In this document: positions 15,147 to 58,280 of the stretch, piece by piece
Layout of the letters: every line of letters starts with the position of its first letter
Numbering within the stretch: position 1 is the first letter of the stretch
Assembly: GCF_036588685.1 (NCBI RefSeq)
Contig: NC_086381.1
Span: 2,232,001 to 2,296,000, forward strand
DNA: 64,000 nt
Origin: Mytilus trossulus
Taxonomy: Eukaryota
Direction: 5' to 3'
Notes under the pieces: generated by a model
What the model saw: only the letters and a program-made list of their open reading frames with translations
Told to the model about the DNA's origin: nothing
Databases searched by the model: none
Position numbers and translations under genes: made by a program

Positions 15147-15318
15147 TAGTTATCAACATTACCAGGATTATAATTTTATACGCCAGACGCGCGTTTCGTC
15201 TACATAAGACTCATCAGTGACGCTCAGATCAAAATAGTTAAAAAGCCAAATAAATACAAAGTTGAAGAGCATTGAGGATCCAAAATTCCAAAATGTTGTG
15301 CCAAATACGGCTAAGGTA
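15147..15318 (-). mobile_element. Retrozyme family B copy, 5'-truncated, with TTAGA TSD
   Basis: Homology to the other family B copies. TTAGA occurs at 15142-15146 and 15341-15345. Confidence 0.85.
15179..15226 (-). ncRNA. Type I hammerhead ribozyme (intact core)
   Basis: Minus strand GCGTCA-CTGATGA-GTCT-TATGT-AGAC-GAAA-CGCGCG-TC-TGGCGT. It has the CUGAUGA and GAAA cores, stem II GTCT/AGAC, a palindromic minimal stem III, a GUC cleavage triplet and stem I GCGTCA/TGGCGT. Confidence 0.9.
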
Positions 15319-16554
15319 AAAATTAAGAAAATTAAGAAAATTAGAAACATTCAATACAATATGCTTTAAATTTGGCCAAAATTGTCGACAAAACTCATTA
15401 TTTGTAAGATTAAAATTTTGCTCATAATAATATTGATTATTTTTCCTATCAGGTAATTTGTGTAATCATTTTTTTAAAAGATTTACTTTGTTTTCCATTA
15501 CTAAAATATCATTTTTCCTTTCTTTGACTTTTGATAACCAGTATTGTATAGTAGACTCTCTTATGTCAGTTTTTAGCAGGTCCAACTGATTCAGGACATT
15601 TGTAAGATTAAAATTTTTCTCATAATTTTAAATTAACTTATTTATTAGTTTATTATACTGAGTATCAGTCAATTCATTTAAAAATATCCCTTACCCCGAT
15701 TGTTTGCATAAATGTCTAATTTAAGCAAAGTAGCCAGGTGGTCTGTGAATGAAATTTGTGCAGGCCTGATATCAGCAGATACAGTGTTTATGCGTGCTTG
15801 TGCGCATATTATGAATAAGTCTATTCTACTAACTTAATTTCAATTTTGTAGAATTTTTCCATTTCCATATGTAATGTTTTTACCTTTATTTAATTGTTTC
15901 CAAATGTCTATCAATTTATGTGTTTTAATTAATAATTGTTTTAAACCACTGACTGGCTTTTAAAACTTTGTATGTTTTTTTTTTTTTGTTTTTTTTTTAT
16001 CTAAAGTTGAGAGAAGATCATTCATATCGATCTCCCCCTACTATTAGAGCACCATGAGTGTGTTCTTCATTTAATTTACTTACTTTTTTTTTTATAAAAT
16101 TGGTTTCTTGCATGAACTTCATTAGGTGCATACAAGTTTACTAAGGTGAAGATCTTATCTTGAATTTATATATTGATTAAAATAATTCTCTCTTTTTTAT
16201 CGCAAAATTCATTAATTAATTTAAGTCCTTTAAAGTCAAATGATTTATTAATATAAAAAAAAAATCGATCCCCTTGAATTTGTTGTGCCTAGGCTATGAA
16301 GATGTTTACCATGGCATTCACTATTAACTTGCTTTATCAAATCTTTTGACAAGTGAGTTTCTTGTGCCATTAAAATGTCGCATTTCAGTTGATGAAACCA
16401 AGAGAATAATCTAAAGCTTTTTACCTTTCTCGCTATACCTTGCAATTAAGTAAGCAAATGTGAAAGTTTTTTGTTTTCATTGTAGTACATTTGTATTAAA
16501 ACAGTTCAATTGTCAATCTCTTAAACGTTTTATTTAAATCTATCAAAATGTATA

Positions 16555-16601
16555 ACGCGTCTGGCGTACTAAATTATAATCCCGGAACCTTTGATAACTA
16601 T
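16555..16601 (+). repeat. Retrozyme family B 3'-terminal fragment
   Basis: ACGCGTCTGGCGTACTAAATTATAATCCCGGAACCTTTGATAACTAT. Confidence 0.8.
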
Positions 16602-17669
16602 ATTAACCTGTTCTATGTATCGTAACCCAGATAAACAGGAAGCTTTTTTTAAGAGTTATAAATAGCTCAAGGATAATTTCTATTTTTAGCTTCATTACTG
16701 ACTTACCGAAAACGTCTTGTATTTTGTCAACACTAACATTGTCCCATTATGTAATTTTGATAGCGCGTGTGGTTCTTGTGTATTTAAAACTTTCGTTTGC
16801 TTTTAGAGATATGGAATAAATCGTGCCACATAATGTTGTTAACCAAATGACTTTATGTAAAGTGCTAAATAAATGAAATATGTGCACAACGAAAAAGTGT
16901 GTGATATTTGAGTTATGATTATGTTCATATCCTGAAGAAAATAACATCTGAATAAAGTCTTTTACCGAAAATGTTCTCTTATAATTAAAGGATACTGGCA
17001 GTTTAAACTTTTTACTTGATTTCAAGAATCTCTTTTGAAAAAGGATAAATGTGTCCTTACATGTATAATAAAATTGTAGATAGCTATGTGAAGTAAAAGT
17101 GATTTTTCCCCCATTGCTGCATTTCAATAATTTAGTGCTCCAACCAATGATGCAATTTTGTTTTAGATGTGCGTGGAACGAATTTTTTTATCCAAGCAGA
17201 TTTACCAACTTTAAATTCATAGTCTGTACAATTTTCATTTACAAATAATTTCATATATATGCTGTATTTACCTCATTTTTAAATAAACAACTATTCTGAT
17301 ATTTCTCTTTGGAATGTATTCTATCTACAGTATAGACATTACATTCACAAATTACAATTTTGGTCACTTGATAAATAGTATGTTTATGATACAAATTAAA
17401 CAAAGACATATATACAATGTATCACTCAGTTTGTTTTGTATTTAATAGGATATTCCTGTTGGTTAAAGCTGACGGAAAAATGTTTTTCAAAGCGTAAAAT
17501 TAAACCAGCTAAAGCATGTAAGTACCTTGTTTTCTAAAAGACAATGTTTCTTGTATGGTAAAATTATGCAGCTAGCATCGAACACAAAAACCATAAATAA
17601 TGACAATATATTGGTAAAGCCAAACTAGTATTTAACATTGAAGCAGGAGCAAAAAATGAACAAAGTAAC

Positions 17670-17835
17670 TAGTTTTTCACTAGTAATTTAGGGGCCCTTT
17701 ATAGCTGTTTGTTCGGTGTGAGCCAAGTCTCCGTGTTGAAGGTCGTACATTGACCTATAATGGTTTACTTTTATAAATGGTTATTTGGATGGAGAGTTGT
17801 CTCATTGGCACTCACACCACATCTTCCTATGTCTA
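17670..17835 (+). repeat. Dispersed repeat family A
   Basis: GGGGCCCTTTATAGCTG...TTGAAGGTCGTACATTGACCTATA...GAGAGTTGTCTCATTGGCACTCACACCACATCTTCC; near-identical to 31310-31470. Confidence 0.85.
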
Positions 17836-19544: not shown

Positions 19545-20100
19545 TCCCAAAAACACTGAGGAAAAATCAAAACGGTAAGTCTCTAACCAAATGGCAAAAT
19601 TAAATGATAAAACACATCAAACGAATGGACGACACTTTTCATATTCCTAACTTGTTACGGGCATTTTCAAATGTATAAATTGGTGGATTGAACCTGGTTT
19701 AAAGCGCTTAACCTCTCACTTGAATGACAGTCTTACCAAACAGCGTTATTTCGATAACATTGGGTGAACAAAGAACACAATAGGTAAAACTGTCACAAAT
19801 AGGTGTATAACAGCCACACGAAACCCACTTAACACTGGGGATGATTTCAGATGATTCAGAAAGATAAGCAGATCTTGCTTCACCTGTGGCACCCATGGCG
19901 TTGCTCATTATATTACGAAACCGGTAAATAGTAAGGTAACATTCGTGCAAAGGGAATGCGACTGTAGTCACGACATAATGAACATATCCGATATCATCTG
20001 TGTAACGGATATTCCTTAAACGGTCAACCAACTCATGATGGCTTCCGTAAAATTTAAAAAGTGATGATTTCAACTTCACCATCTGGAACTCTTGGTTTAA
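19545..20100 (-). mobile_element. Penelope-like retroelement 3' fragment (RT C-terminus plus downstream region)
   Basis: MVKLKSSLFKFYGSHHELVDR resembles the C-terminal RT thumb motif of molluscan Penelope-like elements. Related pieces lie at ~34000-34240 (-), 48215-48400 (+) and 50045-50230 (+). Confidence 0.55.
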
Positions 20101-21639
20101 AAATTACAAAAGGTCACAAATTTCTCCTTGCTTTAAATTTAACACTTCTCTCAACAAGCCAAAATTGTAATGATTTACATTAAAGAGAAACTACCATCAT
20201 CAACACACATAGCCGAGTAAATACTGATATTTAATTTCCAATTCAGATTAAATAATAATTAGAATAAAAAAGTTCTAAAAGAGGGACGAAAGATACCAAA
20301 GGGACAGTCAAGGTTCACGTATTAACGTTTTTATTCTATTATAAACAAATGAATGTACAACTAAGAGTAGTCTGGACCACTTTTAAAACAAATATCAAGT
20401 GAACCTATTGCGAATTGTTCTTTGAACATCCCTAACTTGCTAAGATTGTTTTTAGAACACTTAATAACTGACCAAAATTTAAGAATGATTTTGTGTTACC
20501 GGACATAGTAAGATCGCTTTAAAGGAGACGTTAGAATCGTTCTTAAATCTTGTACTTTTTTCAAAACATTAAGGGCTGTCAATCATTTTAAGATAGGTCT
20601 GAGTTTGGGTCTTGTTACATTTTTAAATCTTAAGACGCCCTTAAGACGTTAGTAAGACATAAGAATGCTTTTGTTACCGGCCCAAGGTCTATGCATTTTC
20701 CGATGAACATTTTTAGACGTCCTTTTGGCATAATCCTTGTTAATTAACTTTCTGTTAAGACTCTTCATTACTTTGATTTGTATTTCTTTTCACAACCATA
20801 CCCTATCGTCAAAAAGAATGTATTCCACACTGCATTTCAATATATAAAGGCATATCTTTAGGTAAGCTTAAATTATTTATTTCACTTGACGAGCTTAGAA
20901 ACTCAATATTTCAGTACCTCTAGCAATTCACTTTCTCAGGTGTTTATCATTTACAGTAAGTGATTTAACATGACCATTCGAATTATATGTGCATTTCAAA
21001 AAAGAACAAAGGTAATAAGAAGGTTATGATTGTACATCTTTTGTGGATCAAGGTTTATGATGCCTTCTACTGTTTGAAATTTTGGATGCAATATACTTTT
21101 ATCTTTGAAGTTAAATTAAATTATTTGTCACAAAGAACTGTAATTGTTAATATTTATACCATCCACACATTCAACATAAATTTATAAGTTCACATTTTTA
21201 CAATGGGTTAGGGTAAGGGTAAGGGTTACAAAAAAACAAAAAAACAAAAAACAATTTTTATGACAACCAATTAATATTGGAATGAGAAAATAATACAACT
21301 ATTTATTCGTGTTTGTTTTATCTTCAAGTTCATTTTTTGGGGTATTCGGCTTCTTAGAGTGATGGAGAAATACACTCATACATACACGGACCTAATATAA
21401 ATTGACCATAACACCATAGTTAAATACTACATGGAATTATATGACGATAGAACTAACATTGTGTATACTATTTATAGGTTTAGCGACGTTTTTGTTCCTG
21501 TGCATTCAGTTAGGTTGTTTGGTTGGCGTATCTACAATGTCCTATATGAATGTGGAGAACAGTGATGGCCGTAAGTAACACTTTTTTGCCCAATATAAAG
21601 TTATTGACACTCAGCAAAAATATAACGACAAGGCTGATT

Positions 21640-23802: not shown

Positions 23803-24180
23803 TAAATAAAGGCAAAAGTAATATACCGCTGTTCGAAATTCATAAATCGATCGAGAAAAAAACAAATCCGGGTTACAAACTGACACTGAGGGAAATGCAT
23901 CAAATATAAGAGGAGAACTACAACACAACAGAAACAAATCATTAAAATATAGCACACACAGAAACGAACTATTATATAACAATGTCCATTGTCCTGACTT
24001 GGTACATGACATTTTAAGAAAAGAAATGTGGGTTGAACCTAGTTTTGTGGCATGCGAAACCTCCCGGTTATATGGCAATGTTAAATATAACATTAAAAAG
24101 ACAAGACTACAACGCAGATAAATTGGGAAAAACATATAGGACAGAGAAACACACGAATAATAGCTAACAAAAAGAACTAG
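23803..24180 (-). repeat. Dispersed repeat family D
   Basis: Reverse complement of 26500-26866 and 57456-58280. The shared 3' end is GAACAGCGGTATACTACTGTTGCCTTTATTT. Confidence 0.85.
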
Positions 24181-24191
24181 ATTTTTAAATA

Positions 24192-27100
24192 TTTTTTTTT
24201 AACAACATTAGATATTTATTCATCAAATATGCTTGTTACATTATTACACCAAGAAACCAAGCTTTCCTTGATGCATCCTGTTATATTCCAGGGATTACCC
24301 AGGTTAACAATCAGCTGCTTGTATAAATGTATATATATTTTAATCATGTGTAGAAATTTCTTAAAATACAATTGTACAACATTTTAATACATTATGTGTT
24401 ATTCTATCAATCGTCTAAACTTCTTTTTAATGGCTTTAGTAATGTATTAAGTTTAATTGTTCTGTTTTCGTTGTAGCTTCTTATGTATTCTCGAACAAAA
24501 CGGAGAAGGTTCTGTAAGGACTGAATATGGCCTCAAACTTCAAGTTCATCTTACGAAATATTTCGAACACTTTTTAAACACTTAAGTGTCTATTTCAGTT
24601 GATTCAATTAGTTTCTGTGAAAGGTTTATACATGTACTGAACTAGTCATTATAAACGCTCTGATTCAATATGACAAATATATCAAGTATGCAAAAAATGG
24701 ATATTTTGTCAAAAATGAAAGTAGTATTATCATCAAATACAGCTTACATTTCAATATTAAGAATATCAAGAATAAACACAGCTGCGGCCACTTTCATTTA
24801 AGACGGAATCCGTAAAAAAATTAACTAAAATGCTAAAATTCTGAAGATTTCAGTAAACTAGCATGACTTAATGATGCTAGTACCCAATATGTGTGCATTG
24901 TATTGATTTTTTTTTTTAAAAAGCCCCTATTTTTGTAGCAGAAGCATGTTACTTTGCAATAAATAACTAACAGTTTAATTTTAACAATTTTGTAAAACTG
25001 TTATATTTTGGAGCAAAAAGGGGTCTTAAAAAACATTTACTGTTGTCAATTTCTGATTAGATACATAATATGATTTGTAAATGGAAAAACCTAAGATTGT
25101 TAGAAAATAATTCAGGCCAAAATATTTTTAAAAGTTGTATATTCAAAGGCTTATTGCTTTAATGATACTTTAAAATTTAAATTTGATTTTTTCATTAACT
25201 CATAAACACTTTTCGAAAATTTTTCTAAAAGTCGACAAGAAATAAAAAGAGGTTATAATCTTCTTCTTCGTTAGATTCATTACATTGATTTGGGACTTTC
25301 CTTTTTCAATTTTCCTCAGAGTTCAGTATTTTTGTGTTTTTACTTTTTACATAGACTGTCATTCGTCTGTTTCCATTTAAACAAGAAGTGTTGTGTTGGT
25401 AATATGAATTGTCAAAGTTTCCATCTATATATATATTTTAACTTATTTTTTTCTAAATAAGAAAACAGGAAAACATATAGTTGGTTAGTACTAAGGTTCT
25501 CATTAATTTGTAAAATACGCATCTATTTGCTAACACCAATTGATGGTTCAGTTTTATCTTTACAAATTGTCTTATATAATGTTTAATGGAATGCTTGAAC
25601 CCTCAATGTAGTAACCTTTCCAGATTAGTTCAATCTAGGAACATTTACAATACTTTTTAAAGAACTTTCAGATTGTAACATCTGAAACCAGTCTTTTGGG
25701 ATGTTTTTTTTTAAATATTAATTTCTGCAGTCCAATTATTTTTGCAGTCTTATTTTTCCAGAATAAAATGTTGAGATATATTACCAGTGTCATCTATAAT
25801 ATCGTTGACAAATATCAAGTTACTCTTAATCCAATTTTCAAAATTAATCAGTTTGTTCTCCCAAATTACCTGTTTTCTTACTTCTGTGAAGTTGGTAGGT
25901 TTTTTGTCTGTCCACCGTCTGATATTACCCAACATTCAAATACTTCTCTATAAAATTCAGGAATATGTTTGATAAATTCTAGAATTTTCTTCTTTTCAAA
26001 ATTCATCTTAAAAATTAATCAATTAATACCAACCACGCCGAGATATTTTAATGGAATCAATTTCCAGTTTGAAAAATCATTACTAATGAGTTTACTTACC
26101 CAAGATGCTTTTAGAGACATAAAGTAAATTTGCATGTCGATAATTTGTAACCCCCTTCTTCGTTTGACTTTATCATGGTATTTCTTTTAACCCTATCTGG
26201 TTTACCGTCCCAGATTTGTTTATAACTAGTCATCACTTCTGTTTAATCATGTATATCTATTATATAGTCATTATACTGTTTGCAAAACTATGTATTACTC
26301 TTGATAATAATAATGTTTTGTCCCAGGCGGTTAACCCTGGCCTTACAACTTTTTGGAATTTTTGGTCCTCGGCGATCTTCAACTTGGTAGTTGTTTTGGC
26401 TTTCAAACTATTTACATCTGAGCATAGTTTTGTGTTGACGTAGCGCGCTTCTGGTGTATAAAAATACTCTTTAACGTGTTGCCTTTGGATTGCTATTATT
26501 CGTTTGTTTCTCTGTCCTATATTTTCTCCCATTTATCTGTTTATTTATTGTAACCCTGCCGTGTAATGTTGTAATTTTAATGTTGAAATTAAAACTGCCA
26601 TTAAGGCGGGAGGTTTGGCATGCCCCAAAACCAGGTTCAATCCACCATTTTGTCATAAAATGCCCTGTTCCAAGTGAGGAAAATGGCCATTGTTACATTA
26701 TAGTTTGTTTCTCAGTGTGTTATGTTTCGGTGTTGTGTCTCATTTGAGTCGTAGTTCTCTTATATTTTATACGTTTTTCTCAGTTTTAGTTTGTAACTCG
26801 GATTTGTTTTTTTCTCTATCAATTTATGAATTTTTAACAGCGGTATACTACTGTTGCCTTTATTTATAATATATACTGTCTATTTCTTTTCTGAATTTCT
26901 CATGAACTGTACAGGCAATTTCATAAAATGTAAAAAGTGGTAAAACTTATGTGTTTATAATCAGATTTTCCCAATTTAAGTTAAATTACGTTTCCCCCAT
27001 AAAGGAAATAGTCTATTCATTTTCTCAATCTTACTTTCCCAGTTTAATTTTTCACATTCGTGACCAAAATATATTCCCAATGATTTGACTGGTTTGTTTG

Positions 27101-29250: not shown

Positions 29251-30369
29251 CATACATTTATTTTATTTATTTAACTATACCGTGTTATCTAATTGAATTT
29301 TCAAACATGTTACATAAATAAATCAATACAATGTGAAATATATACAATACTTCTACATAGAAGTATTTCTTGTTTTCTTTTCAACATAAACATGATAAAC
29401 AATAACTGAATACTACAATTTAAATATGTTTTGAATCCGGTAAACAAATTACCACTAGACTTAACGATTCTAAACACACATGCTATACTATTTTAAAAAG
29501 CTTTCATTTGCAATGTATGGACATATGATAATGAAAATCAAAACCTGTCGAAAAATGATAAATTTTGTGAAGACGATTATAGGGTGCAAATTTTTTTTTG
29601 CTGAAAGTTGGATAGAAAATCGACACACATACAATTTTCTAAGTACTAAATGAATTTTCTTTCTTTTTTTTTTAATTATCCAATATGCTTATCAAGTAAA
29701 TTTCATTTTGTATCTAATGAGTTGAAATATTGCTTTTTAAATTTAAAAAAAAATGTTTTTTCAAAATCTCAAAAAATGCAATAAAAATTTTTTTTTCTTC
29801 GTCTCCAATCAATGCTTAAGATATGGAAACAACACACTGTAAATTTGGAATCTTTCAGATAAGTTTTAAGATTAGTACCGCTTATTTAAATTCACTTTAT
29901 ACTGTCTATGGAAAAATCAATTGAAAATATATACATTTTTTTTGGTAGGCCGAACTTTGCTTTCGAAATAAGCGAAGAAACTGTATGGTTTGTAAAAAAT
30001 TATTGATGGCAAACATTGTCTTTACCTTTAAATGAGTGGTTGGCATCATCAGTTGGATTGTCTGTTTTTTTAAACTGTAATTTTATTTAAGTTTTTTTTC
30101 AAAAATATAAAATTTCGACAAATGACGTCATGAAAGCCCCAAAAAAAATCTTCTAAACGGATTTATATTTCTATGGTCATTAAGTATTACTACCTTCAAT
30201 ATTAGTCCTTTAAACAGAAAACTTTATCTTTAATTTGAAAAAAAGTCGTGCATCGTTTATTTTGTCGACTAGTATAGTATCACGACTAGAAATGTTTTCA
30301 TTAATAATAGTAACTGTATCACTTACATTTTTAATTTGGATATTTATTCATATATATGTGTAGATTTAA

Positions 30370-30640
30370 AATTTAATACTCCAGACGTGCGTTTCGTCCA
30401 CACAAACCAATGACACTCAGATGAAAAAAGTTTGAAAATGTAAAAAGTTGTAAAGCAAAGAAGACCAAAAGTTCCGAAAACGTTGCGACCAATACGGCTA
30501 TGTTTTCATTGCCTGGATTAAGAGCATCCTTATTATTTAGAACGAATATTCATACTTTTTTAAACAGTAAATTTTATAAAATGATTAAATATTAGACATA
30601 CATGATAAAACCAAAATTGTGATTACCTACAGAATAAAAA
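30370..30640 (-). repeat. Degenerate retrozyme family B copy
   Basis: CCAGACGTGCGTTTCGTC...AATACGGCTA is present, but the CUGAUGA core is lost. Confidence 0.65.
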
Positions 30641-31917: not shown

Positions 31918-32210
31918 TGCACGTCTGGCGTACTAAATCATAATCCTACTACCTTTGATAACTATTTACACCACTGGGTCGATGCCAGGTCGATTGCTGA
32001 TGGGCGTTTCCCCCGAGGGTATCATCAGCCCAGTATTCAATACTTCGATGTTGACATGAATATCAATTATGTGGTCATTTGATACAAATTTCTTGTTTAA
32101 AAAAATGAAATTTTCGAAAAACTAAGGATTACCAAAGTCGTAATTGGTACAACATTTTGGAATTTTAAATCTTCCGTGCTCCTCAACATTTTACTTGTTT
32201 GGCTTAAACC
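31918..32210 (+). repeat. Retrozyme family B monomer starting near the cleavage site
   Basis: CGTCTGGCGTACTAAATCATAATCC...TTTGATAACTATTTACACCACTGGGTCGATGCC...CCCCGAGGGTATC; the reverse complement of 8335-8610. Confidence 0.8.
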
Positions 32211-33368
32211 TATTGAGAATGTTGACCTATCTTGCCTTTTTCAATATCAATAACAAATATCAATTATCATATAGTGAAAGAATAATGTGAACGTCTTCGT
32301 AGCATAGGATCTTTCACGATCCTTTTCACGATCTTCAAAAATGCGGTACGTCATCTTTCATGATCCAAAAAATCAATTGTGTGTAGATAATTCTTTATTC
32401 AACAAGTTTCAGATTATAATTATACAAAATAACTATCAAAACCGTTTAATGAATTCAAATACAATGCCCTTATTCTGATAAACGTAGTTCATCTACTCGA
32501 ATTCGTGAAAAAATCGTGTTTGTTTACATTTTTTATGTCATTGAAATGTCGAGAAGCAATCTGCCTTTTGTCGTTTTGTAATAACTATGTACTTTTGAAA
32601 CTGGATACTCTGAAATATTGATCATAATGTTGAACCATTTTGACAAACAGTTTTATTTTGTCGTAAATGTGCCTGTGAAATTAATTAAATTAGAATATTA
32701 ACTGAAGTTTCATATGTCTTCTCGATTAAATGTCTTTCACAATCCGTTACCAGAACTTTCACGATCGTCTCTCAATAATTCACCGCCGTTAAATATTCTT
32801 TCACGATAATTTCTCTCGATAAACCGAATGACACCCGTTTATAAGTAAGCAGCATATTCATTTTCATTGTATTTACATTTTTAAAACATATGTATTATTT
32901 ACTTTGAATGATCTTTAGTTATTTATTTAATGGACCATGGAAATATACAATACAGTTAGCGATTCGGGTTACTGTCTCCATCATGTTTATTGAACATATA
33001 TGAGGACAATTAAACAAACCAATATCTGATATATGCACCATGCTGGTACATGGTAACATGTGTCGTTAGGTTAGGTTTTCACACGAATGCGAAACGCCTG
33101 ATTTCATGCAATAATATGTGTGTATCACAAGCGTTTTCAAAACATTTGCTGAAGGAAACATCTGAAACAAATGCGTGTAACAAGTTTCTGAAGCGGATGT
33201 TTCACACATGTGCAAAAGTGTGGCATTTTTGCCTGTATTAAAATGCCCTCATATGTAATTGTACATGAATATCAATTATATGGTCATTTTCAAAAATTTC
33301 AAAACAACTTTCGGATCCTCGATGTTCTTCAAATTTTACTTGTTTAGCTTTTTAACTATTTTGATCTA

Positions 33369-33414
33369 AACGTCACTGATGAGTTTTAAGGAAACGAAAC
33401 ACGCGTCTGGTGTA
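33369..33414 (+). ncRNA. Type I hammerhead ribozyme in a family B copy (33260-33450, continuing 33618-33810)
   Basis: ACGTCA-CTGATGA-GTTT-TAAGG-AAAC-GAAA-CACGCG-TC-TGGTGT. Stem II is GTTT/AAAC, a compensatory variant of GTCT/AGAC. Confidence 0.85.
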
Positions 33415-34734
33415 TATAATTATTATTCGATTACCTTTGATAACTATTTGTGCACCAAAACATACTGGCCATAATGATAAGCCTTCATAATTGAATAATA
33501 AGAAATGTTGTACATTGATTGCAACGAAAACCTATACATCAGATTCCACACAACGCAACGAGAATAGGAACATCTTTGTTTGACACAACGTTTTTGCATA
33601 TTAAATTGTAAGCCTAGTACTTTGATAACTATTAACACCACTCGGTCGATGCCGCTGATGTTGGCAGTTTCGTCATCGAGGGTATGACCATTCCAGTAGT
33701 CAGCATTTCGGTATTGCCATGAATATCAATTATGTGGTCAATTTAAAAACAAATACTGTTTGCAAAAGTAGGAATTATTCGAAATATTTTAATCCTTAGG
33801 CCCCGGCATGACTATAACATAAAGCAAATCAAGAGAAATACCAAATGTTAGTTGTAAAGCTAAAAAAGGGCAACATATTAAAGGGATGGTCAGAGTCGAA
33901 AATAAACTGACAAAAAAATGGACAAACACAGAAACAACGGTACACAAAACACAACAAAGAAAATTAAGACTAAGCAACACGAACTCTGCACACACTAGGG
34001 ATGATCTAGCGTACGTATAACGTTATTCTTGTATTTATACACAAGGTGATAAGTCTAATTCGGTAGTTCATATTCGAGGAAAAGGAGAAAGGATCGCAGT
34101 TATGAAAAGATATGAAAATTTGAAAATTTCCCTCATTATCAATGAAAACAGATATTCCATAATATTCAACGAACTCGTGATAGCATTCGAAAAAAATACT
34201 AACTAATCGCGCTGTAGATAAGACAGATAACAACAACCGATAAGTTCTTGACTTGGGATACAGAATGTTGCGATTTTAATTACGTAAAAGAGCACCCATG
34301 AGGATAAGCTATAAAAATCAGTCAGAAAAGCTTGACTATTAGAATCAACACTAGGCACTCAAAAATTAAGTAACAAAAAGAAAAACAAACACATGGCACC
34401 GATCCAAGTACACTTATCAATAGACATTTATGGGGACATTTAAAATAAAATAAAATAATAAGTTAACGTGTAACTTTTGTTTCAATTAATGACGTGTTAT
34501 ATGTATTGGGCTAAAACTAATGTATACCATATATTGTAGTAAAGGCAGCGGCGACAGTGATTGGATTCGTTTACACAACATTCGGTTTGCTGTTTGTAGT
34601 ATATGTGGCAGGTATGTTTTTAGACATCACTAAATTAACAGCACGAAACATAACAAGACCCAAATCTAGCAAGAAGTTTTCATCTAAATAATATTGTGCC
34701 TAGTTATGATATGTCCAGTAATGTTAAACTATTT

Positions 34735-36130: not shown

Positions 36131-37989
36131 AAGAAAGCATATGAGATACTATTGTGGACGCTCTTCTGATGTGCTATTATATATTTTCTGGTGATACATT
36201 ACTAGTGTATGTCCTCATGGAATCAGAATATAGCCACCCTTTTTGTTAACACTGTAGCGCCTCAAATGAAAGATTTCAGGAATGACGCTATGCTGTGTAC
36301 CCATATGTCCGGTTAGGCAATGTGTCTGAATTATGTGGGGAGCATGCTACAATTACATAAACGGTATATTTTTTTGCACCAGATGTGCATTTCGACAGTT
36401 GATGTTTCTTCAGCGATGCTCGAGACTAAGCAAATTATAAAATTCAAAGCTTATTAATAGGTGACGATCTATTGACCAAAAAGGACAAAACAAAACTTTC
36501 AAGCAGAGTGATATGATCACTACTGAGTTCATTCCGCGCTGTGCTCTCATTATTTTTTGTGACCAACGGGAATATTTCTTCTGGATGCACTTCTGTATAC
36601 CGGCTTGATATGTCCATTCTACCCGCAGAGGTTGAAACATGCTTTAATGAGGGTTTCGTTGCTATTAGTAAGAAATTTAGTTCATTCAATTGAGTGTGTC
36701 GGTCTCAAGGAACTGGTGGACACAAGGTTTATCATGTAAATGAAGGAAGCAGTATCCCAGACTGGACAAAATTCCTGGCAAACAATTAGAATAAACACTC
36801 TTTGATCAAACTCACCGGGGAATTTATTTCGAAATTCTGTTGTGCCAGAAATCCACTGCCTGTTAGACAAACATTCTATCTAGGACGGACTTTCAAAAAT
36901 CAAAAAATCGTAAATAAAAATAACCCTACGATCAATACACGGACTGTGCAAGCTTGTTTAGCAGTCCGACCGACACGATATTCGTTTTACATGCTCTCTA
37001 TGCAGACGAACAATTTAAGAAGTGTAATGTTAGAGGGAGAACGATTGTCAAATGTTCTGACACTGATGTGTTTTTTTTTTTATTATACTGACATCTGTAC
37101 ATTTGTTAGTTGTAAAACATCAAGTACCGGTACCTTATCCCGGCCTCGATAACATTAGTAGATAACACATTGATACTGCTGCTAGTTTTTATGTAGATCG
37201 GAAAAGAAAACAAATATTAAAAAACGACAACTGAGCTCATAGAACATATATCAGATCAATCTACAGTTTTACGAGAAGAAATGATTTTTGTTTTAAAACA
37301 TTATGTTCAAGTACAAATCTGGAACAATGTTAAACTCACAGAAAATGAGAAGGATTTGTGTGAGGGTAATATTTCTTTTAAAGAATGTGAAGAATCTCTT
37401 AAATCTGTGTCAAATGGAAAGAGTCCAGGCTCAGAGGGGTATACTGTAGAATTTAACAAAGGCGTTTGGTGAGTTAATGGATCTTTTATTTTACATCGTT
37501 ATATTTTGGCTATGAAATTGGGGAATTTTCTAAATTTCAGTATCAAAGTGTCATTGCATGTATTCCATAAAAAGATAAAGATAGACGTTATTTAGCTAAT
37601 TGACGCCCAATTATCCTTTTGAAGATTGACAACAAGATTGCGTCCGCTGTCATTGCTCATATAATAAAACCTGTTTTACCATTTATTATCAGTGGCAGTC
37701 AGAAATGCTTTAATAAAGACAGATTTATTGGCGAGAATACGCGTCCATTGTTTGATGTGATGCACTACTTAGAAAAACATAACAAAACTGGTATTTTATA
37801 AATAGAAGATTTTTAAAAGGCTTTTGACCATTGTTGACTCTATTGAATTAAAGAGTTTCTATTTTGGACCATCTATATGCAGATGGTTTGCAATATTGTA
37901 TTTGAAAGCATCAAGTTGTGTTATAAATAATGGCCATCTTTCAAGCTTTTGTGATTTTGAGAGAAGCTGTAGACAAGGTGACCTTTCTA

Positions 37990-41920: not shown

Positions 41921-41933
41921 TGGTGTCGTGACT
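41921..41933 (+). promoter_or_regulatory. Primer binding site complementary to the tRNA-His 3' end
   Basis: TGGTGTCGTGACT lies 1 nt after the 5' LTR; the expected sequence is TGGTGCCGTGACT (one mismatch). Confidence 0.8.
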
Positions 41934-41946
41934 TCAAACGGAGAGA

Positions 41947-46586: not shown

Positions 46587-47884
46587 TTTGTCGAATAAGG
46601 CCTGTTGTGAATAGACAAAATCTAAATAATGAGAATTTTTTAATTCGGTATATTGCTTCTAAGAATAGACAACGAATTGCCTAATTTTGGTACATTGTTA
46701 CAATGCACTTGGTTTACCGGTATTGCAAACTAAATAGTTACTTTGAACAGATGCAAACAAACTGATTGTACTCATATATATATATATCATTTGGTTCCAA
46801 TCCTTATTATTACAAAAAATACAATGTAGCTTTCAAAATTTAAGATTACTTTTAGAGAAAATTAAATTAGTTTTACTCACCGAATTGCTCTTGCCAAAAT
46901 AATATCCGAATATGGCAAATGTGTTCGCTTGTTTCGTTGATTGATATCGTTTGATTTTGTAAGATTTTATGAACTTCCCCTTTTTGAATTTGCATTTGAG
47001 TTCTGTATTTTTTTGTCAATTTTCTAAAGTAGTCTGATCTGTTTGAATAAATAATAATTAACTTTCTCTATTAGCATCTACCAAAAATGGCTAAAATTAT
47101 CAAATTTTTGTTGCAATCCTCAATTGGTTAAACATGTTAAATATGATATAGTATCATTTCCCTACTCAATAATAACATTTTTGTGTCTGTCATATATCCA
47201 GATATCTACATATTTAACGTTTACAGTATTACATGTACTTATCTGTAAATGTTCTTTTGTAAACACTATTGGCAAAAGTCTCAACAGTGATGTGTACATC
47301 CTTTCTCTGTTCTTATTTTATTTATTGTATACATGATATTGAATATATAACCTGCATATTAGACTACTCTTCTTAGATTTTCTTTTGTGTGTTTGATTGC
47401 AGGTTTTCGACGTTCAATTAGAGGTGAAGATTTGGACAATACGATTTTAACACAATCAAGTTCCTTTTGTAAGAACAATAACAATAAGAAAAATGAATGG
47501 CACTTAAGACTAAGACAACAACAACATGAACAACAACTAGGGCTGATATATAAAGTGCTCAGGAAGGGTAAACAGATCCTTCTCCACATGAAGCAACACG
47601 TCGTGTTGTTCATGCATGTCAAAATCCAGTAAAATACACATATCAGTGATAGTTAATGTCAGCAAAAGAGTGCTGACTACTTGGGTGGTGATACTCTCAG
47701 AAAAAAAGTCAAACATGGTAACAATCCTTCATCGATGCAGGGTTATAATTTGATACGCCAGACGCGCGTTTCGTCTACAAGACTATTTCGTGCCGTCAAA
47801 TATTTGTATATTAGTATTTCAGATTAAAGTAGAAGGATGTTGTGCTGTCTTTAAATGTTTTAGTTCATTGATTTTTTTATTAAT

Positions 47885-48085
47885 TAGTTTAAACATATTT
47901 ATTTATAGTGGATTGGGAAACAAGTTTTACAACATATATTAATCCCTTTCCACTTTGCGGATGCGAGTGCTGCCTTGTAGCGGCATTAGCCTACTCTTTT
48001 TCGAAATCTACAAGGGTGTCTTTAACGTGCAAGATATATGGCTCTCTCTTAACACGGGTCAGCCATTTATCGTCCCCGTCCGATT
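47885..48085 (-). mobile_element. 5'-truncated SINE with Deu/Nin-like domain
   Basis: Minus strand GACGATAAATGGCTGACCCGTGT...GCACGTTAAAGACACCC...AAAGAGTAGG with an (AAAT)n tail. Absent from duplicate copy 2 and flanked by duplicated TTTTTTTTATTAAT. Confidence 0.7.
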
Positions 48086-48556
48086 TATTAATTTTTTTTA
48101 TTAATATCCATGTTCCTGTTGTTTAACGATTTCCGTCTTGTGTTTATATATGAGCCAGTATATTTATCTATGAGCCAGTGTATATTTCATGTCCACTCAC
48201 AAGAAAGTTATGAAAGTAAGAGTTCCAAGTGGAGAAATTAAAATCATCCCTTCGTAAATTTCACGGACGCCATCACGAGTTGGTTGACCTTTGTGGAATA
48301 TCGTTTCACAGTTAACAACGGATATGTTCCATTTGCCTGAACTACAATTCCATCCCCTTTTACCTAAATGTGATCTACCAAATTAGACTTATTATCGGAT
48401 TATCTGATATGTACTAACGAAACCATGAAATTGGATTAGAATAAGTTGATTTTGTTCTCCTCTTATATTTGATGCGTTTCCCTCAGTTTTAGTTTGTTAC
48501 CCAGATTTTGGATTTCTGTCCATGGATTTATGAGTTTTGAATAGCGATATACTACT

Positions 48557-48700
48557 TTAGGGGCCAGCTGAAGGACGCCTCCGGGTGCGGGAATTTCTCG
48601 CTACATTGAAGACCTGTTGGTGACCTTCTGCTGTTGTATTTTTTTATTTTGGTCGGGTTGTTGTCTCTTTGACACATTCCCCATTTCCATTCTCAATTTT
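48557..48700 (+). mobile_element. Family C insertion with short TSD
   Basis: The empty site ATATACTACTGTTGCC is in copy 2 (~50374-50389). The filled site duplicates (T)ACT. Confidence 0.85.
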
Positions 48701-51700
48701 ACTGTTGCCTTTATTTATGCAATAGGTCTACTATATTTGGTGTATGGAATGATTGTAAGGTATTTATGTCTAGCTGGCATGTGTCATCTGACTTGACCTC
48801 AATTTTATGGTTCATTGGTCAATGTTTAGTTTTCTTTGTTGTTAATGTCAAGCTTATGTGACAATTATAATAAAGCTTTATATTTAGGACTATCAACATA
48901 ATATCAATGATTAGAAGGCGAGACATATCAGCGTGTGCACTCCTGTTCTTTAATTCTTGGGGTTCTTTAATATGCTGAAGTAAACCCTGTATTAAGGTGT
49001 TTTTTTAATTTGGTCCCAGTTTTTATACGAACCCAAAATGTTTGCGTTCGTATATTGGTATCACGTCGTCTGCTATATACAATATACAATGCAATATTCA
49101 CTTAACTACCAACTGATAAATTAATGCAATCTTCACCGTTCAGTGATTACAAGCACTATGATTACTATTCTATGGTTATGCCCCTTTACAAGTGGAAAAA
49201 TTGAAGATTTTTTTAGTTTCTGTTCTCTTAACTTAAGTTTATCCAGATATCTACATATTTAACGTTTACAGTATTACATGTACTTATCTGTAAATGTTCT
49301 TTTGTAAACACTATTGGTAATAGTCTCAACAGTGATGCGTACATCCTTTCTCTGTACTTATTTTATTTATTGTATACATGATATTGAATATATTACCTAC
49401 ATATTAGACTGCTCTTCTTAGATTTTCTTTTGTGTGTTTGATTGCAGGTTTTCGACGTTCAATTAGAGGTGAAGATTTGGACAATACGACTTTAACACAA
49501 TCAAGTGCCTTTTGTAAGAACAATAACAATAAGAAGAATGAATGGCACTTAGGACTAAGACAAAAACAACATGAACAACAACTAGGGCTGATATATAAAG
49601 TGCTCAGGAAGGGTAAACAGATCCTTCTCCACATGAAGCAACACGTCGTGTTGTTCATGCATGTCAAAATCCAGTAAAATACACATATCAGTGATAGTTA
49701 ATGTCAGCAAAAGAGTGCTGACTACTTGGGTGGTGATACTCTCAGAAAAAAAGTCCAAACAGTGGTAAAAATCCATCAACGATGCAGGGTTATAATTTGA
49801 TACGCCAGACGTGCGTTTCGCTTACAAGACCCCTTCGTGCCGTCAAATATTTGTATATCAGTATTTCAGATTAAAGTAGAAGGATGTTGTGTTGTCTTTA
49901 AATGTGTTAGTTCATTGATTTTTTTATAAATATCCATGTTCCTGTTGTTTAACGATTTCCGTCTTGTGTTTATATATGAGGCAGTATATTTATATATGAG
50001 CCAGTGTATGTTTCATGTCCACTCACAAGGAAGCTATGAAAGCAAGAGTTCCAAGTGGAGAAATTAAAATCATCCCTTCGTAAATTTCACGGACGCCATC
50101 ACGAGTTGGTTGACCTTTGTGGAATATCGTTTTCACAGTTAACAACGGATATGTTCCATTTGCCGTAACTTCAATTCCATCCCCTTTTACCTAAATGTGA
50201 TCTACCAAATTAGACTTATTATCGGATTATCTGATATGTACTAACGAAACCATGAAATTGGATTAGAATAAGTTGATTTTGTTCTCCTCTTATATTTGAT
50301 GCGTTTCCCTCAGTTTTAGTTTGTTACCCAGATTTTGGATTTCTGTCCATGGATTTATGAGTTTTGAATAGCGATATACTACTGTTGCCTTTATTTATGC
50401 AATAGGTCTACTATATTTGGTGTATGGAATGATTGTAAGGTATTTATGTCTAGCTGGCATGTGTCATCTGACTTGACCTCAATTTTATGGTTCATTGGTC
50501 AATGTTTAGTTTTCTTTGTTGTTAATGTCAAGCTTATGTGACAATTATAATAAAGCTTTATATTTAGGACTATCAACATAATATCAATGATTAGAAGGCG
50601 AGACATATCAGCGTGTGCACTCCTGTTCTTTAATTCTTGGGGTTCTTTAATATGCTGAAGTAAACCCTGTTTTTTTTAATTTGGCACCCGTTTTTATACG
50701 AACCCAAAATGTTTGCGTTCGTGTATTGGTATCACGTCGTCTGCTATAAACAATATACAATGCAATATTCACTTAACTAACAACTGATAAATTAAAGCAA
50801 TCTTCACCATTCAGTGATTACAAGCACTATGATTACTGATTACTATGGTTATGCCCCCTTTACAAGTGGAAAAATAGAAGAATTTTTTAGTTTCTGTACT
50901 CTTAACTTAAGTTTGTCTCAACTAAATTTATGTTATCATTTTTGCTTGATTGGTAAGCCAATATCTGATGGTTATTTTATTATTTTCAATTACAGCAACT
51001 GTAATCCATGAGTCTAAATGCTGACAATATATTACAGGATTTTATTATTCAAGCAACATCTTAGAAGAATAATTGCAAATGTATGAAGGAAGCTGTGGGT
51101 AAAAATAGCAATTACGCCAGATACATGCAGGAGAGAACTCTTAAACGAAGATATGATATGGGAGTGCTGTAATTAAGAAACCTAAAACACATGTAATTAA
51201 GTAGTGTATATATATTTTCATCCACAAGTACTTTCAGAAATAATACAATTCAAATTCAAATTATTGTGTCAAAATTACAATTATAGTCTAAACATGAATA
51301 ACGCATGTTTTAAACCAAATTTTATATAAATATTTGATATTACTAGAACTATTACTTATTGTGCAACCAAACTTTGCAATTTTCTAATGGTATATGTTTG
51401 TTTTTTGCCAAAATTTGTTTTGAAATAAGAAGGAAACGGTTGTTAATAACAGTAAGGCATTCAATGTGGCTTATCAAATATATTTAACAGAACCTTTCTA
51501 TTTCAATTTATTAATATAATGCGAAATAAGGTATAAATCAATCAAACAGCTACACAAAAACAAAAACACACGAAAGGCATTAAGGTGCTAACATACAGTG
51601 ATTACAGTCCTCAACAATAAAGTTGATAAACAGGTGTCTAAACAATGTCATGATCTAATTAATTAACCATAGTCTATACCAATCAAAGCGCTTCTACATA

Positions 51701-52550
51701 AAAAAATTAGATATGGTTTTTATTAAGATGAGATTTAAGACAACCACTGAAACTCTGGCTTAAAACAGGCAAACAAATATGTGGCAGGGTAAACTACTTT
51801 TTTTCTTCAAAACTTTTTAAAGAAGAATTGGCATCTTTTGCAAGTAAGACAATTTCCATAATGGGATTGGATTGTCTCATGACTGATACCCACAAAATGA
51901 CTTATATATACAAATTCAAAATTAAATCTTCATCAGTGCATACATATTCTTTAATTGAATCACCAATCCTTACATCACTTTCTAAAAACAATATTGCAAC
52001 TTTATCATAACCAACACAATTCTAGGAGTAAACTTAAGGTGATCTGTATATTTGCTTGCGTTCTTTGTTTTATTACATCTTATCTCTTGCATTGGAGATA
52101 TTATGGGTTGGGATTTATATTGTTAAAGATAAAGAAAGTAAAATACAATTGAAGTATGAACACATAGTCAAGACCAAGAAGAATATTTATATATATCAAA
52201 ATAGAATGTGTACTAGATTAGCATTAACTTAATATCTAAAATAAATTATGTTTAAATATTATGAATGAGAGATGCTCAATTCACTTTCATTTCATTTAAG
52301 AAAAAATAATACGAATGCTCAATTCACGTTAGCTTCACATGAAAAATTTAACATGAATTTCATGTTAGAGCCCATTTCAAATTAATTGAACGTGAATTAC
52401 TGTTTACAATTTTTTGAATTTTTTGAAATACTAAGGCTTTTCTAACTCAGGCATAGATTACCTTAGCTGTATTTGGCAACACTTTTAGAATTTTGGTCTA
52501 ATGCTCTTCAACTTCGTACTTTTTTTGGCCTTTTTAACTTTTTTGGGTTC

Positions 52551-52595
52551 GAGCGTCACTGATGAGTCTTTTGTAGACGAAACGCGTCTGGCGTA
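52551..52595 (+). ncRNA. Type I hammerhead ribozyme in a family B subfamily copy (52410-52635)
   Basis: GAGCGTCA-CTGATGA-GTCT-TTTGT-AGAC-GAAA-CGCG-TC-TGGCGTA; stem III is 2 nt shorter than in the other copies. Confidence 0.85.
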
Positions 52596-52805
52596 TATAC
52601 TAAATTTAGTCCTGGTATCTATGATGAGTTTATTTATGTATTATAATTATAATGGGATTTGATTGTCTCATGACTGATACCCACAAAATGACTTACATAT
52701 TCAAATTAAAAATCTATAATTGTTTGAGGTGAATCTCACATGAAATTTACCTGAACAAAATTTGCCTGTGTATATATATGGAAAACCCATGTATCACACA
52801 TTTAA

Positions 52806-55742: not shown

Positions 55743-55866
55743 CAGAGGCGGATTTAGGGGGAAAAATGGTTGCTTATATAGGGAATCTCTGAAGCGTGGC
55801 TGGAGCGCGCACCCTCTTAAGCAGTCAGTGGGCCCTCACTTATGAAAATATCTAGATCCGCCAGTG
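55743..55866. mobile_element. hAT-like MITE with 5-bp TSD
   Basis: Termini CAGAGGCGGATTTA / TAGATCCGCCAGTG with TTATC on both flanks. Confidence 0.7.
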
Positions 55867-57234
55867 TTATCCTATGGGCAAACAACTTTATCTATTTTAT
55901 TGTGACCAACAGGTCTGAACAGCTAGATTTGATACCAGTTTGGTTTTTGTTTCAATACTTAATAAAGTGTCATTTTTTGTCAATACGTAATACAATAGCA
56001 CTACTTAGATCGTGAACATAAATATATGTTTTTGGCGACTTTGGTTTAGAAAAGTAACCATTCTGAAAAGTAAAAAAACAAACCACGTTGTTTGACTTAC
56101 TAAAAAAATACTATAATCAAAGTAATACAACATATGTGTCTGATGACTTGGTTTCAAAAGCCTTCATGCATTTGTTAACAGATCTTTCTGTCTCTTGGTA
56201 TGTACTAGATAACAACGAAGAGTCAATGAACTTCTCGGGATAAAGTTCTTTGTGTCTCTGAGTTAATAAAAATAGGAATAAAAACTGAAGATGGAGATGG
56301 ATAGTACGCATTTGAAGTTTCGAGAAAAAAGATATCGAGTTGAATTATTGGTGGGATCGTTGACACAACTTTTGTCAACCCTAGTATTTAAATATGTCAA
56401 ATCCACTTCCAGCTGTGTTTATTAATAACCTCAGTAATCATACCCATTATAATGAAAATTTGTCACCTTTGTAGTTAGTAATCAGGTTACATTTTTTTTG
56501 TAATGTATACAATTATGTTGGTGTCAAATTACAGCTTTTTCATTCAGCATGCATACAGACTTAACCAAAAGTTTAATTGTTTGCATTATGTTAGACTGGT
56601 ATTAATAAAACATGTATATTATGACTGATGTATTTTAAAAATATATATGACATTCAGTTAGATTATCTAGTAAGTTTTCATGTTTTTTTGGGTTTTTTTG
56701 TTTGGTGTACCCTTTATTACTAGATATATTGATATATACTTATATAGGAACTCAAAAGTCTGACTTGAATTCCAATTTCAAACAAGTTAGCAAGTTGTTT
56801 AGCTATGAGATGAATACATTACTTTGTCGATCTATGTTGTAAAATTAAAGTAGGGGTTTTACCAAAACACACTCTTTTTCGAACATAAAGAAAAAAGGGG
56901 TCAATTTATATTTTATGTTTTGACAACTTTAAGAATGAGAATGCAAATCGGGATATGTCAACGAGACAACACCCCGACAAAAGAGCAGTATACATTTATT
57001 TTTATTCAAAGAACAAGCTCTGATACAAACGAGCTTTAAGACGTGGCACGTTACTTTTTCATCTAAAATCAATTTGTTGGGTTTTGATGTTGTGTTTGAG
57101 TTGTCATCAGATTTTGTCAATGTCTTAGTTCAGTATTTTTGTGATTTTTGATTTTACTTTTTAATGTGTGTAGTTGTAAATCGTTTTTTTCTTCTGTTGT
57201 ATTTAGTTATCAAAGGTACCAGGATTATAATTTA

Positions 57235-57283
57235 GTACGCCAGACGCGCGTTTCGTCTATATAAGACTCATCAGTGACGTTCA
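57235..57283 (-). ncRNA. Type I hammerhead ribozyme in a family B copy (57204-57455)
   Basis: Minus strand ACGTCA-CTGATGA-GTCT-TATAT-AGAC-GAAA-CGCGCG-TC-TGGCGT. Confidence 0.9.
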
Positions 57284-57455
57284 GATCAAAATAGTTATAA
57301 AGCCAAACAAGTACAAAGTTGAAGAGCATTTAGGACCCCAAATTCCAATAAGTTGTGTCAAATAGCTTTAGATAATCTATTCCTGGGATAAGAAAATGTT
57401 TTCGAAAAATTCAAAGTTTTGTAAGGAAATTTATGAAACTGACCATATAATTGAT

Positions 57456-58280
57456 ATTTCTCCCATTTATCTGTTTATTTATTGTAATCCTGTCGTGAAA
57501 TGTTGTCATTTCAATGTTATAATTAACACTGCTAATACAGCGGGAGGTTTGGCATGCCATAACACCAGGTTCAATCAACCATTTTTCATAAAATGCCTTG
57601 TACAGCCCTTGGATGGTGTAAACTTCCTAAAAAACGTGTATGGTGTAATGGCGTACGGCATATGGTGCAATGGCGTAAGTTGTATGGTGGTATGGTGTAT
57701 GGTGTAAGGGGAATGGTGTAATGGTGTATGAGGAATGGTGCGATTGTGTAACTTTCGATCGGGAATGGAGTGAATGATGGTGTACGACATTTCATTGGTT
57801 GAAAACGAAGTTCTTTTTATTTTATTTTTTCGAATTGTAAACATAAACAATAATAATAATCTTAATATTTGAAATTTAATTACATTATGGGTAATTTATT
57901 ACATTATAGGTAGTTTAATTACATTACGCGTCTGGCATATTAAGTTATAATCCTGGTACCTTTGATAACTATTGGATCGTGTAGATAGAATCGGTAATGG
58001 TGTATGGTGTAATGTGTAAGGTGTATGGTGCAAAGGTGTAACGTGTATGGTGCATGGTGTTAGTGGGAAGTTTACACCATCCATGGACCGTACCCAGTCA
58101 GGAATATTGCAATTGTTGCATTGTAATTCGTTTGTGTGTGTGTTACATTCGGTGTTATGTCTCTGTTGTGTCGTAGTTCTCTTATAATTGATACGTTTCC
58201 CTCAATTTAAGTTTGCAACACGATTTGTTTTTCTCTGTCGATTTACGAATTTTGAACAGCGGTATACTACTGTTGCCGTT
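57456..58280 (+). repeat. Family D copy split by a Tc1/mariner-type MITE
   Basis: Homologous to 26520-26866 on both sides of 57603-58090. Confidence 0.8.
57603..58090. mobile_element. Tc1/mariner-type MITE with (ATGGTGTA)-like subterminal repeats
   Basis: TIR C(A/G)G(C/T)CC(T/A)TGGATGGTGTAAACTTCC with a TA TSD. Removing it restores the family D sequence TGTA|CC.AGTCAGGAA. Contains a family B tail at 57926-57971. Confidence 0.85.

What the first reader, a model, noticed from the sequence alone, without database searches (positions are those of the whole stretch)
15147..57971. Dense family of hammerhead-ribozyme retroelements (retrozyme / Penelope-type), about 12 copies in 64 kb
Seen: four copies have an intact type I hammerhead core (15179-15226 -, 33369-33414 +, 52551-52595 +, 57235-57283 -). 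Degenerate or partial copies lie at ~8335, 16555, 26410, 30370, 31918, 47740, 49790 and 57926. Stem II shows compensatory change (GTCT/AGAC vs GTTT/AAAC), and stem III is a minimal CGCGCG palindrome. Overlapping copies give a circularly permuted monomer of roughly 360-370 bp with no ORF. Known: minimal type I hammerheads of this kind occur in Penelope-like elements and in metazoan non-LTR retrozymes, which make small circular RNAs and have been reported in mussels, so the class itself is not new. Inference: these are non-autonomous RNAs mobilised by the Penelope-like RT whose fragments are also in this window. The 57235 copy is antisense inside the predicted Ig-gene intron.
Basis: partly seen in the sequence, partly recalled or inferred. 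Interest (0 to 1): 0.7.

Follow-up and report, generated by a model that had tools for sequence, protein, structure and literature searches.

The report
Mussel retrozyme shares Naiad start hairpin
These are broken copies of a known self-cutting RNA repeat of mussels, and most copies sampled across the genome stop just before a predicted RNA hairpin that also opens Naiad jumping genes, which likely names the enzyme that copies the repeat and the spot where copying starts.

Summary
The hammerheads are real: all 12 listed copies plus two more. They are truncated fossils of the published mussel non-LTR retrozyme; elsewhere the genome has 353-361-bp tandem arrays and 18,701 exact cores. No window copy can release a monomer. 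The 'compensatory' stem II change is at chance level, the ribozyme is canonical rather than minimal, and the Ig intron is unconfirmed. The same hairpin opens three intact Naiad (Penelope-like) families, whose copies stop at the same offset. All 21 pairs hold in six families, 7 through two-sided changes. Naiad reverse transcriptase likely binds the hairpin, starts just 5' of it and copies across the cut site. A 2020 review says no such partner motif was known; a 2026 preprint links retrozymes to PLEs in frogs only. This scan noted the Naiad link before on other DNA. Untested at the bench.

The parts
8334..8657 (-). Subfamily A copy, 0.9 unit, damaged hammerhead (8618-8641), holds the shared hairpin (about 8511-8570)
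15143..15319 (-). Subfamily A copy, intact hammerhead core 15179-15226, 3' end at unit +43; abuts a LINE-like RT remnant
16556..16601 (+). 46-nt copy, unit -6 to +40: fixed 3' end, stops just past the cut site
26227..26466 (+). Old copy, about 67% identical to subfamily A
30366..30626 (-). Old copy, about 69% identical
31919..32214 (+). Copy from unit -6 to about +300, with the hairpin, no hammerhead core
33263..33449 (+). Older copy with hammerhead 33369-33414 (core intact, helix III palindrome broken), 3' end at +42
33596..33784 (+). Extra copy, unit +3 to +191, decayed hairpin
36347..36490 (-). Extra copy of subfamily C (different hammerhead, AUC cut triplet), fixed 3' end
47631..47801 (-). 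Decayed copy inside a local duplication
49676..49848 (-). Duplicate of the 47631 copy
52397..52636 (+). Young subfamily B copy (97%), hammerhead 52551-52595, 3' end 6 nt before the hairpin position
57195..57458 (-). Subfamily A copy, best hammerhead (57235-57283, above Rfam gathering score), fixed 3' end
57927..57973 (+). 47-nt copy, unit -6 to +41
19816..20311 (-). Naiad-3 3' fragment (two pieces) with ORF end; stops 6 nt before the hairpin position
23803..24104 (-). Naiad-2-type 3' fragment ending at -6
25285..25350 (+). Naiad-1 3' fragment ending at -5
26569..26867 (+). Naiad-2-type 3' fragment ending at -5
50004..50398 (+). Naiad ORF end plus 3' fragment ending at -5 (duplicate at 48178-48556)
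58164..58282 (+). Naiad-2-type 3' fragment ending at -9

Best explanation
The window holds 14 truncated copies of the known mussel non-LTR retrozyme, a 350-361-nt hammerhead repeat that is likely spread by the reverse transcriptase of Naiad Penelope-like elements, using a predicted hairpin that both carry. Steps: (1) tandem arrays elsewhere in the genome are transcribed (arrays shown; family RNA with sense bias seen in runs of the same species label). (2) The hammerhead cuts after GUC and monomers are ligated to circles (published for the M. galloprovincialis element; inferred here). (3) A Naiad protein binds the 63-nt bulged hairpin at unit +48 to +110 (inferred). (4) Its GIY-YIG domain nicks DNA and its RT starts about 3-12 nt 5' of the hairpin (inferred from the fixed ends, which are shown). 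(5) RT copies back across the cut site and falls off at variable points, leaving fixed 3' ends, ragged 5' ends and now and then multimers (ends shown; circle rather than uncut multimer as template is inferred). The hairpin is copied only after nearly a full turn, so most insertions, including 11 of the 14 here, lack it and cannot move again.
For: Identity: one search shows the published 375-nt M. galloprovincialis retrozyme; by eye it matches the subfamily B unit. Fixed ends: 51 of 73 blocks in 100 evenly spaced 10-kb stretches end within -20..+1 of the hairpin (46 within -12..-3; uniform null 22/355; p 2e-44), 25 of 32 at 85% identity or more. The same pattern came from a mid-unit query. Loose ends pile up at unit +40 to +43 in all four public runs. 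Naiad ends in the same sample: 29 of 50, 33 of 63 and 16 of 21, medians -6, -7, -6 against -7 for the retrozyme. Hairpin: the same bulged fold in retrozymes A, B, C and Naiads 2 and 3, and the same stems plus an inserted hairpin in Naiad-1 (z -2.5 to -3.5). 21 of 21 pairs are kept in all six, 7 with two-sided change; covariation score 0.63 against 0.35 shuffled and at most 0.16 slid, on the two outer helices. Retrozyme A and Naiad-3 share 55 of 63 nt, and in locus L202 this is the only shared sequence. Its core stands at the start of 13 published Naiad consensus records, including Naiad_Mgal and three coral families (13 of 23 hits for an 8-mer). Four C-terminal-endonuclease PLE families showed only chance-level matches to it. 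Precedent: a PLE RT starts inside its RNA and needs sequence 3' of the start (PMC11167929). 43 of 51 fixed-end copies run 8 nt or more across the cut site.
Against: No binding or RT assay. 22 of 73 retrozyme ends and 21 of 50, 30 of 63 and 5 of 21 Naiad-like ends lie elsewhere. BLAST ends are good to a few bases only. The covariation set is 10 rows from six related families, and the structure was derived from them. Short reads cannot tell a circle from a tandem transcript, and no pile of read ends marks the cut site. 6 of 51 copies stop at -4..+1 of the cut, which hints that cut linear RNA is sometimes the template. Target duplications are weak: 14 of 45 at 5 nt or more against 17.9% for mismatched pairs, 5 of 45 at 7 or more against 1.9%. 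A 573-bp hammerhead family in the same genome lacks the hairpin, so the link does not cover all retrozymes. The in vitro precedent is a Poseidon-clade PLE, not a Naiad.
Confidence: 0.75

Rival explanations
1. Same Naiad partner and start site, but the template is linear (uncut array transcript, or cut monomer with end-to-end jumps); long arrays grow by DNA recombination and the circles are a by-product.
For: In vitro the PAc RT used unprocessed RNA and did not need hammerhead cleavage. 6 of 51 copies end at the cut. L020 shows a higher-order 358/355 pattern and arrays run to dozens of units, as unequal crossover would give. This rival concerns step 5 only and overlaps with the best explanation.
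Against: Circles are the main RNA form in mussel tissue (PMC7229834). In the predicted circle the hairpin forms with probability about 1, the start region is single-stranded and hammerhead stem I is not formed.
Confidence: 0.35
2. The shared element works at DNA level (internal promoter or endonuclease recognition site), and the fixed ends come from endonuclease resolution of an intermediate rather than from RT initiation.
For: It sits just upstream of the Naiad start codon, where PLE internal promoters lie. PMC8557442 ascribes PLE tails to endonuclease resolution.
Against: Paired changes and G-U pairs keep an RNA fold while outer-stem sequence changes. PMC11167929 maps PLE genomic ends onto RT start sites.
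Confidence: 0.12
3. The hairpin is an inherited relic of a Naiad-derived ancestor, and another RT (LINE or hammerhead-bearing PLE) now moves the repeat.
For: A preprint derives frog retrozymes from PLE pLTRs. A decayed retrozyme piece lies in the Naiad-2 3' UTR. Several intact C-terminal-EN PLE families exist in the genome.
Against: The hairpin is the best-kept part across subfamilies A, B and C; young copies keep the Naiad offset (25 of 32); 3' ends are fixed at an internal point, unlike LINE-type ends.
Confidence: 0.1
4. A viroid-like RNA with hammerheads on both strands that replicates RNA to RNA.
For: The minus strand of unit +50 to +110 resembles a hammerhead, and one window copy reads as a core at 32007-32028.
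Against: The apparent GAAA falls in the variable apical loop of the hairpin, the first core half is altered in young A and B units, and C lacks the GAAA. Rfam finds no minus-strand hammerhead in three arrays. RNA is sense-biased.
Confidence: 0.02

Closest known systems
Mytilus galloprovincialis non-LTR retrozyme (PMC7229834; 375-nt sequence in PMC4918200 Additional file 11)
   Same: Type I hammerhead, 350-390-bp tandem unit, no ORF, 37% GC; subfamily B matches the published sequence by eye.
   Different: The passages read name no partner, fixed 3' end or hairpin. PMC7761336 states that no conserved motif pointing to the helper was seen. Window copies are truncated, not arrays.
Naiad Penelope-like elements (PMC8557442; Naiad_Mgal)
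   Same: Shared hairpin and 3'-end offset, 5' truncation, tandem copies; Naiad-1 here matches Naiad_Mgal by eye.
   Different: Naiads encode EN-RT and lack a canonical hammerhead. The paper's main text has no hit for 'hairpin' or 'stem-loop'. It mentions non-autonomous Chlamys elements that resemble their helpers at the 3' end.
PAc Poseidon element of Anolis (PMC11167929)
   Same: Internal RT start downstream of a hammerhead cut, with required sequence 3' of the start, matching genomic ends.
   Different: Autonomous, C-terminal EN, two start sites in an AC-rich stem-loop; here one start zone, predicted single-stranded, just 5' of the hairpin.
Vertebrate retrozymes as PLE derivatives (bioRxiv 10.64898/2026.07.22.740005)
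   Same: Retrozymes are non-autonomous partners of PLEs.
   Different: Evidence is co-occurrence and pLTR likeness in Xenopus; no mollusc, no Naiad link, no start signal in the text read.

Membership tests
Metazoan non-LTR retrozyme | Canonical type I hammerhead | tested here: met
   definition
Metazoan non-LTR retrozyme | Short tandem repeats of 150-450 bp | tested here: met
   350-361-bp units in tandem elsewhere in the genome; none in the window
Metazoan non-LTR retrozyme | No protein coding, GC under 50% | tested here: met
   longest ATG frame 36 aa, GC 37.5%
Metazoan non-LTR retrozyme | Likeness to the published mussel element | tested here: met
   by eye on a figure-text extract; supplement of PMC7229834 unreadable
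Metazoan non-LTR retrozyme | Expressed as circular RNA | tested here: inconclusive
   abundant sense-biased reads and unit joints, which circles and arrays both give
Metazoan non-LTR retrozyme | Self-cleavage | not testable with these tools
   published for the M. galloprovincialis copy
Metazoan non-LTR retrozyme | Target duplications over 4 bp when present | tested here: inconclusive
   14 of 45 at 5 nt or more against 17.9%
Metazoan non-LTR retrozyme | No LTR, PBS or PPT | not tested
   no dedicated search was run
PLE minimal hammerhead | No helix III, helix II of 7-8 bp, short helix I | tested here: not met
   helix I 6 bp, helix II 4 bp, palindromic helix III
Naiad (helper elements) | N-terminal GIY-YIG ahead of RT | tested here: met
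   PF01541 at residues 183-273 of 1056, YIDD near 901; Pfam RVT_1 itself did not score at E 0.01
Naiad (helper elements) | CxC and DKA motifs | tested here: met
   in L088, L198 and L202
Naiad (helper elements) | No canonical hammerhead | tested here: met
   no Rfam hit in four Naiad-1 loci; Naiad-2 has a decayed one; only 201 bases of Naiad-3 were scanned
Viroid-like two-polarity RNA | Conserved ribozyme on the minus strand | tested here: not met

The most novel reading that the evidence does not exclude
The hairpin is an ancient RT-recruiting and start-positioning RNA signal of Naiads, kept from corals to molluscs and other phyla. The mussel retrozyme is a chimera that joined this signal to a hammerhead so that a ribozyme-less retrotransposon copies it by rolling-circle, target-primed reverse transcription of an RNA circle. 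Other retrozyme families, such as the 573-bp one with its own fixed end in (TA)n, would each carry the signal of a different PLE.
Probability: 0.45. Interest if true: 0.75.

Novelty: new variant of a known kind. Interest (0 to 1): 0.58.

Why it matters
Which enzyme moves animal retrozymes, and whether the circle is the template, has been open since their description. A named helper with intact ORFs, a 63-nt signal and a start site mapped to a few bases turn this into one in vitro experiment of a kind already set up for another PLE. It also gives Naiads, which dominate bivalve genomes, their first candidate cis signal. The element itself is known, and this window is an ordinary if rich sample of it.

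Tried and rejected
Minus-strand hammerhead: rejected. Stem II covariation: chance level. Hammerhead taken from the pLTR of C-terminal-EN PLEs: the matches beside those PLEs were insertions of a separate 573-bp repeat. Pseudoknot within the hairpin: partner bases differ in subfamily B and Naiad-1 (by eye). Pol III A/B boxes near the cut site: recalled consensus, seen by eye, not tested further; the B-like box is part of the hairpin stems. Known RNA family for the hairpin: no Rfam match near a gathering score. Penelope RT in the window by Pfam: only two weak RVT_1 hits among 212 frames of 58 aa or more. Run search: no RNA holder listed on record; raw-read runs were added by species label. Ig gene: no support; the Atlas gave no answer for that frame. 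MAFFT misaligned the apical part of the Naiad-1 hairpin, so one search counts only the two outer helices and pairs by motif anchors.
Full report
Observation. Rfam Hammerhead_1 matches three at 37.6, 33.0 and 26.6 bits (gathering score 34); the 52551 copy shows only as a weak clan hit. Against a natural unit from an array (L013) all 12 listed copies map, plus 33596-33784 and a subfamily C copy at 36347-36490. The genome (1.3 Gb) has 18,701 exact cores and 0 for the reversed pattern. The window holds 15 alignment blocks (14 places) against 4.7 per 64 kb in 100 evenly spaced 10-kb stretches, so it is about three times richer than average.

Corrections. Units are 353-358 bp (A), 361 (B) and 350 (C, one array). 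No window copy has two hammerheads a unit apart; the longest is 324 nt. The stem II double change is seen 30 times against 706 and 604 single changes; independence predicts about 14-23 (hand arithmetic), so it is decay. By PMC4209133 the ribozyme is canonical type I, whose weak palindromic helix III favours a dimeric fold. The Ig intron was not confirmed.

Identity. PMC7229834 describes 350-390-bp hammerhead repeats of Mytilus galloprovincialis that self-cleave and accumulate as circles. The 375-nt sequence in PMC4918200 Additional file 11 matches subfamily B by eye. The host is therefore inferred to be a Mytilus mussel. In raw RNA runs with the same species label, 6,707 of 8.7 million, 7,528 of 8.3 million and 3,876 of 12.7 million records lay on one unit. 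Two runs show a 2- to 5-fold strand bias that fits sense RNA under the usual library convention; the third shows none. Hundreds of reads cross the unit joint, but circles and arrays both give that, and no pile of ends marks the cut.

Fixed 3' ends. Arrays and single copies end 39-48 nt after the cut in A and at the homologous point in B when found with a mid-unit query. In the evenly spaced sample 51 of 73 blocks end within -20..+1 of a hairpin that starts at unit +48 (46 within -12..-3, median -7; uniform null 22/355); 1 of 48 5' ends fell there in the first 60 stretches. In the window 7 of 15 do. All four public runs show loose ends at unit +40 to +43. 43 of the 51 extend across the cut site, 6 stop at -4..+1, and 4 exceed one unit by 40 nt or more. 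Target duplications are short and patchy.

The helper. A GIY-YIG search gave 149 matches, many in long open frames. One family has a 1056-aa frame with N-terminal GIY-YIG, CxC, DKA and YIDD, the marks of Naiads, and matches Naiad_Mgal by eye. Two more families (927 and 1000 aa, 55-66% identical) were found. All three carry, just before the start codon, the hairpin found in retrozymes A, B and C. The folds agree; 21 of 21 pairs hold in all six, 7 by two-sided and 3 by one-sided change (outer helices). Retrozyme A and Naiad-3 share 55 of 63 nt and nothing else in L202. Naiad 3' fragments end at the same offset: 29 of 50, 33 of 63, 16 of 21, medians -6, -7, -6 (counted were hits of 75% identity or more that start over 25 nt before the hairpin and do not touch a stretch edge). 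In the supplement of PMC8557442, 13 of 23 hits for the hairpin's core 8-mer lie at the start of Naiad consensus records, from corals, bivalves and others. Loci of four C-terminal-EN PLE families gave only chance-level matches.

Mechanism. Shown: arrays, hammerhead, fixed ends, shared sequence and offset. Predicted: the fold; in the monomer circle the hairpin forms with probability about 1, the start zone is unpaired and hammerhead stem I is not formed. Inferred: Naiad protein binds the hairpin, nicks DNA, starts RT just 5' of it and reads through the cut site. This follows the in vitro behaviour of the PAc element, whose RT starts internally, needs sequence 3' of the start and leaves matching genomic ends (PMC11167929). 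Whether the template is the circle or a linear multimer is open; the same paper found unprocessed RNA was used. Naiad-3 is the closest match, but any of the three could act.

Against generality. A 558-577-bp hammerhead family (2,341 cores) lacks the hairpin; several of its copies end at unit +372 to +374, mostly beside (TA)n, which points to another helper. A decayed retrozyme piece ending at +41 sits in the Naiad-2 3' UTR in several loci; it is best read as an old insertion, but descent from that UTR is not excluded.

Literature. Seen: PMC7229834 part 2 of 6, sections 14 and 17 and passages (supplement unreadable, and it may show this hairpin in its folds); PMC11167929 parts 1-2 of 4; PMC4209133 part 1 of 4; PMC8557442 section 6, passages and supplement searches; PMC7761336 passages; PMC4918200 one supplement passage; bioRxiv 10.64898/2026.07.22.740005 parts 1-3 of 5 and word searches (its supplements were not seen). 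The 2020 papers propose PLEs as likely helpers and say no motif points to one. The preprint gives pLTR likeness in Xenopus only. Searches found no paper linking mussel retrozymes to Naiads or describing the hairpin; subscription journals and Repbase were not covered. Sixteen earlier notes of this scan hold the same search words and the eight shown reach the same reading on other DNA; I had reached it and count them as leads only.

Verdict. A known element, real and ordinary in this window, with a well-supported but untested link to Naiad RT that makes an open question directly testable. Interest 0.58.

Noticed in passing
L218-L241 (G000:C1), L099, L100, L102, L105: Another hammerhead repeat, 558-577-bp tandem units, 2,341 exact cores, no Naiad hairpin; several copies end at unit +372 to +374 beside (TA)n and lie next to C-terminal-EN PLEs.
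   Followed up: partly
L198:568-1115, also L199, L201, L167: Naiad-2 3' UTR carries a decayed, partly doubled retrozyme piece with a broken hammerhead ending at +41; some Naiad-1 variants carry a 29-nt piece (L071, L072, L076). This may explain the 'HHR_core' remarks on some Naiads.
   Followed up: partly
L082, L098, L107: A different hammerhead-like core (8-bp helix II, short helix III) just past the ORF of a C-terminal-EN PLE family.
   Followed up: no
window 41932-43980 +: Gag/integrase-like frames with DUF1759 and DUF5641, between direct repeats at 41739-41919 and 44231-44411; Bel/Pao-type LTR retroelement remnant (family label recalled).
   Followed up: no
window 6187-8143: Element with long inverted ends (arms 6310-6693 and 7609-7998, about 90% complementary).
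   Followed up: no
window 47195-50837: Local duplication of about 1.7-2.0 kb, 92-100% identical, doubling one retrozyme and one Naiad fragment.
   Followed up: no
window 44693-44830: Near-perfect 61-nt inverted repeat; its mir-3179 hit (44 bits, cut-off 90) is only the hairpin shape.
   Followed up: no
window 223-1372: Adjacent 161-bp and 126-135-bp satellite-like arrays.
   Followed up: no
window 12732-13751 -, 14600-15149 -, 39284-40087 +, 45219-45683 -: Decayed LINE-like RT and 3' fragments.
   Followed up: partly
window 61329-61733 +: 134-aa frame that looks Ig-like by eye; no Pfam hit and almost no RNA reads in three runs.
   Followed up: partly
L020 (G000:C1:47416000-47421000): Retrozyme array with a higher-order pattern of four 358-bp units and one 355-bp unit.
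   Followed up: no
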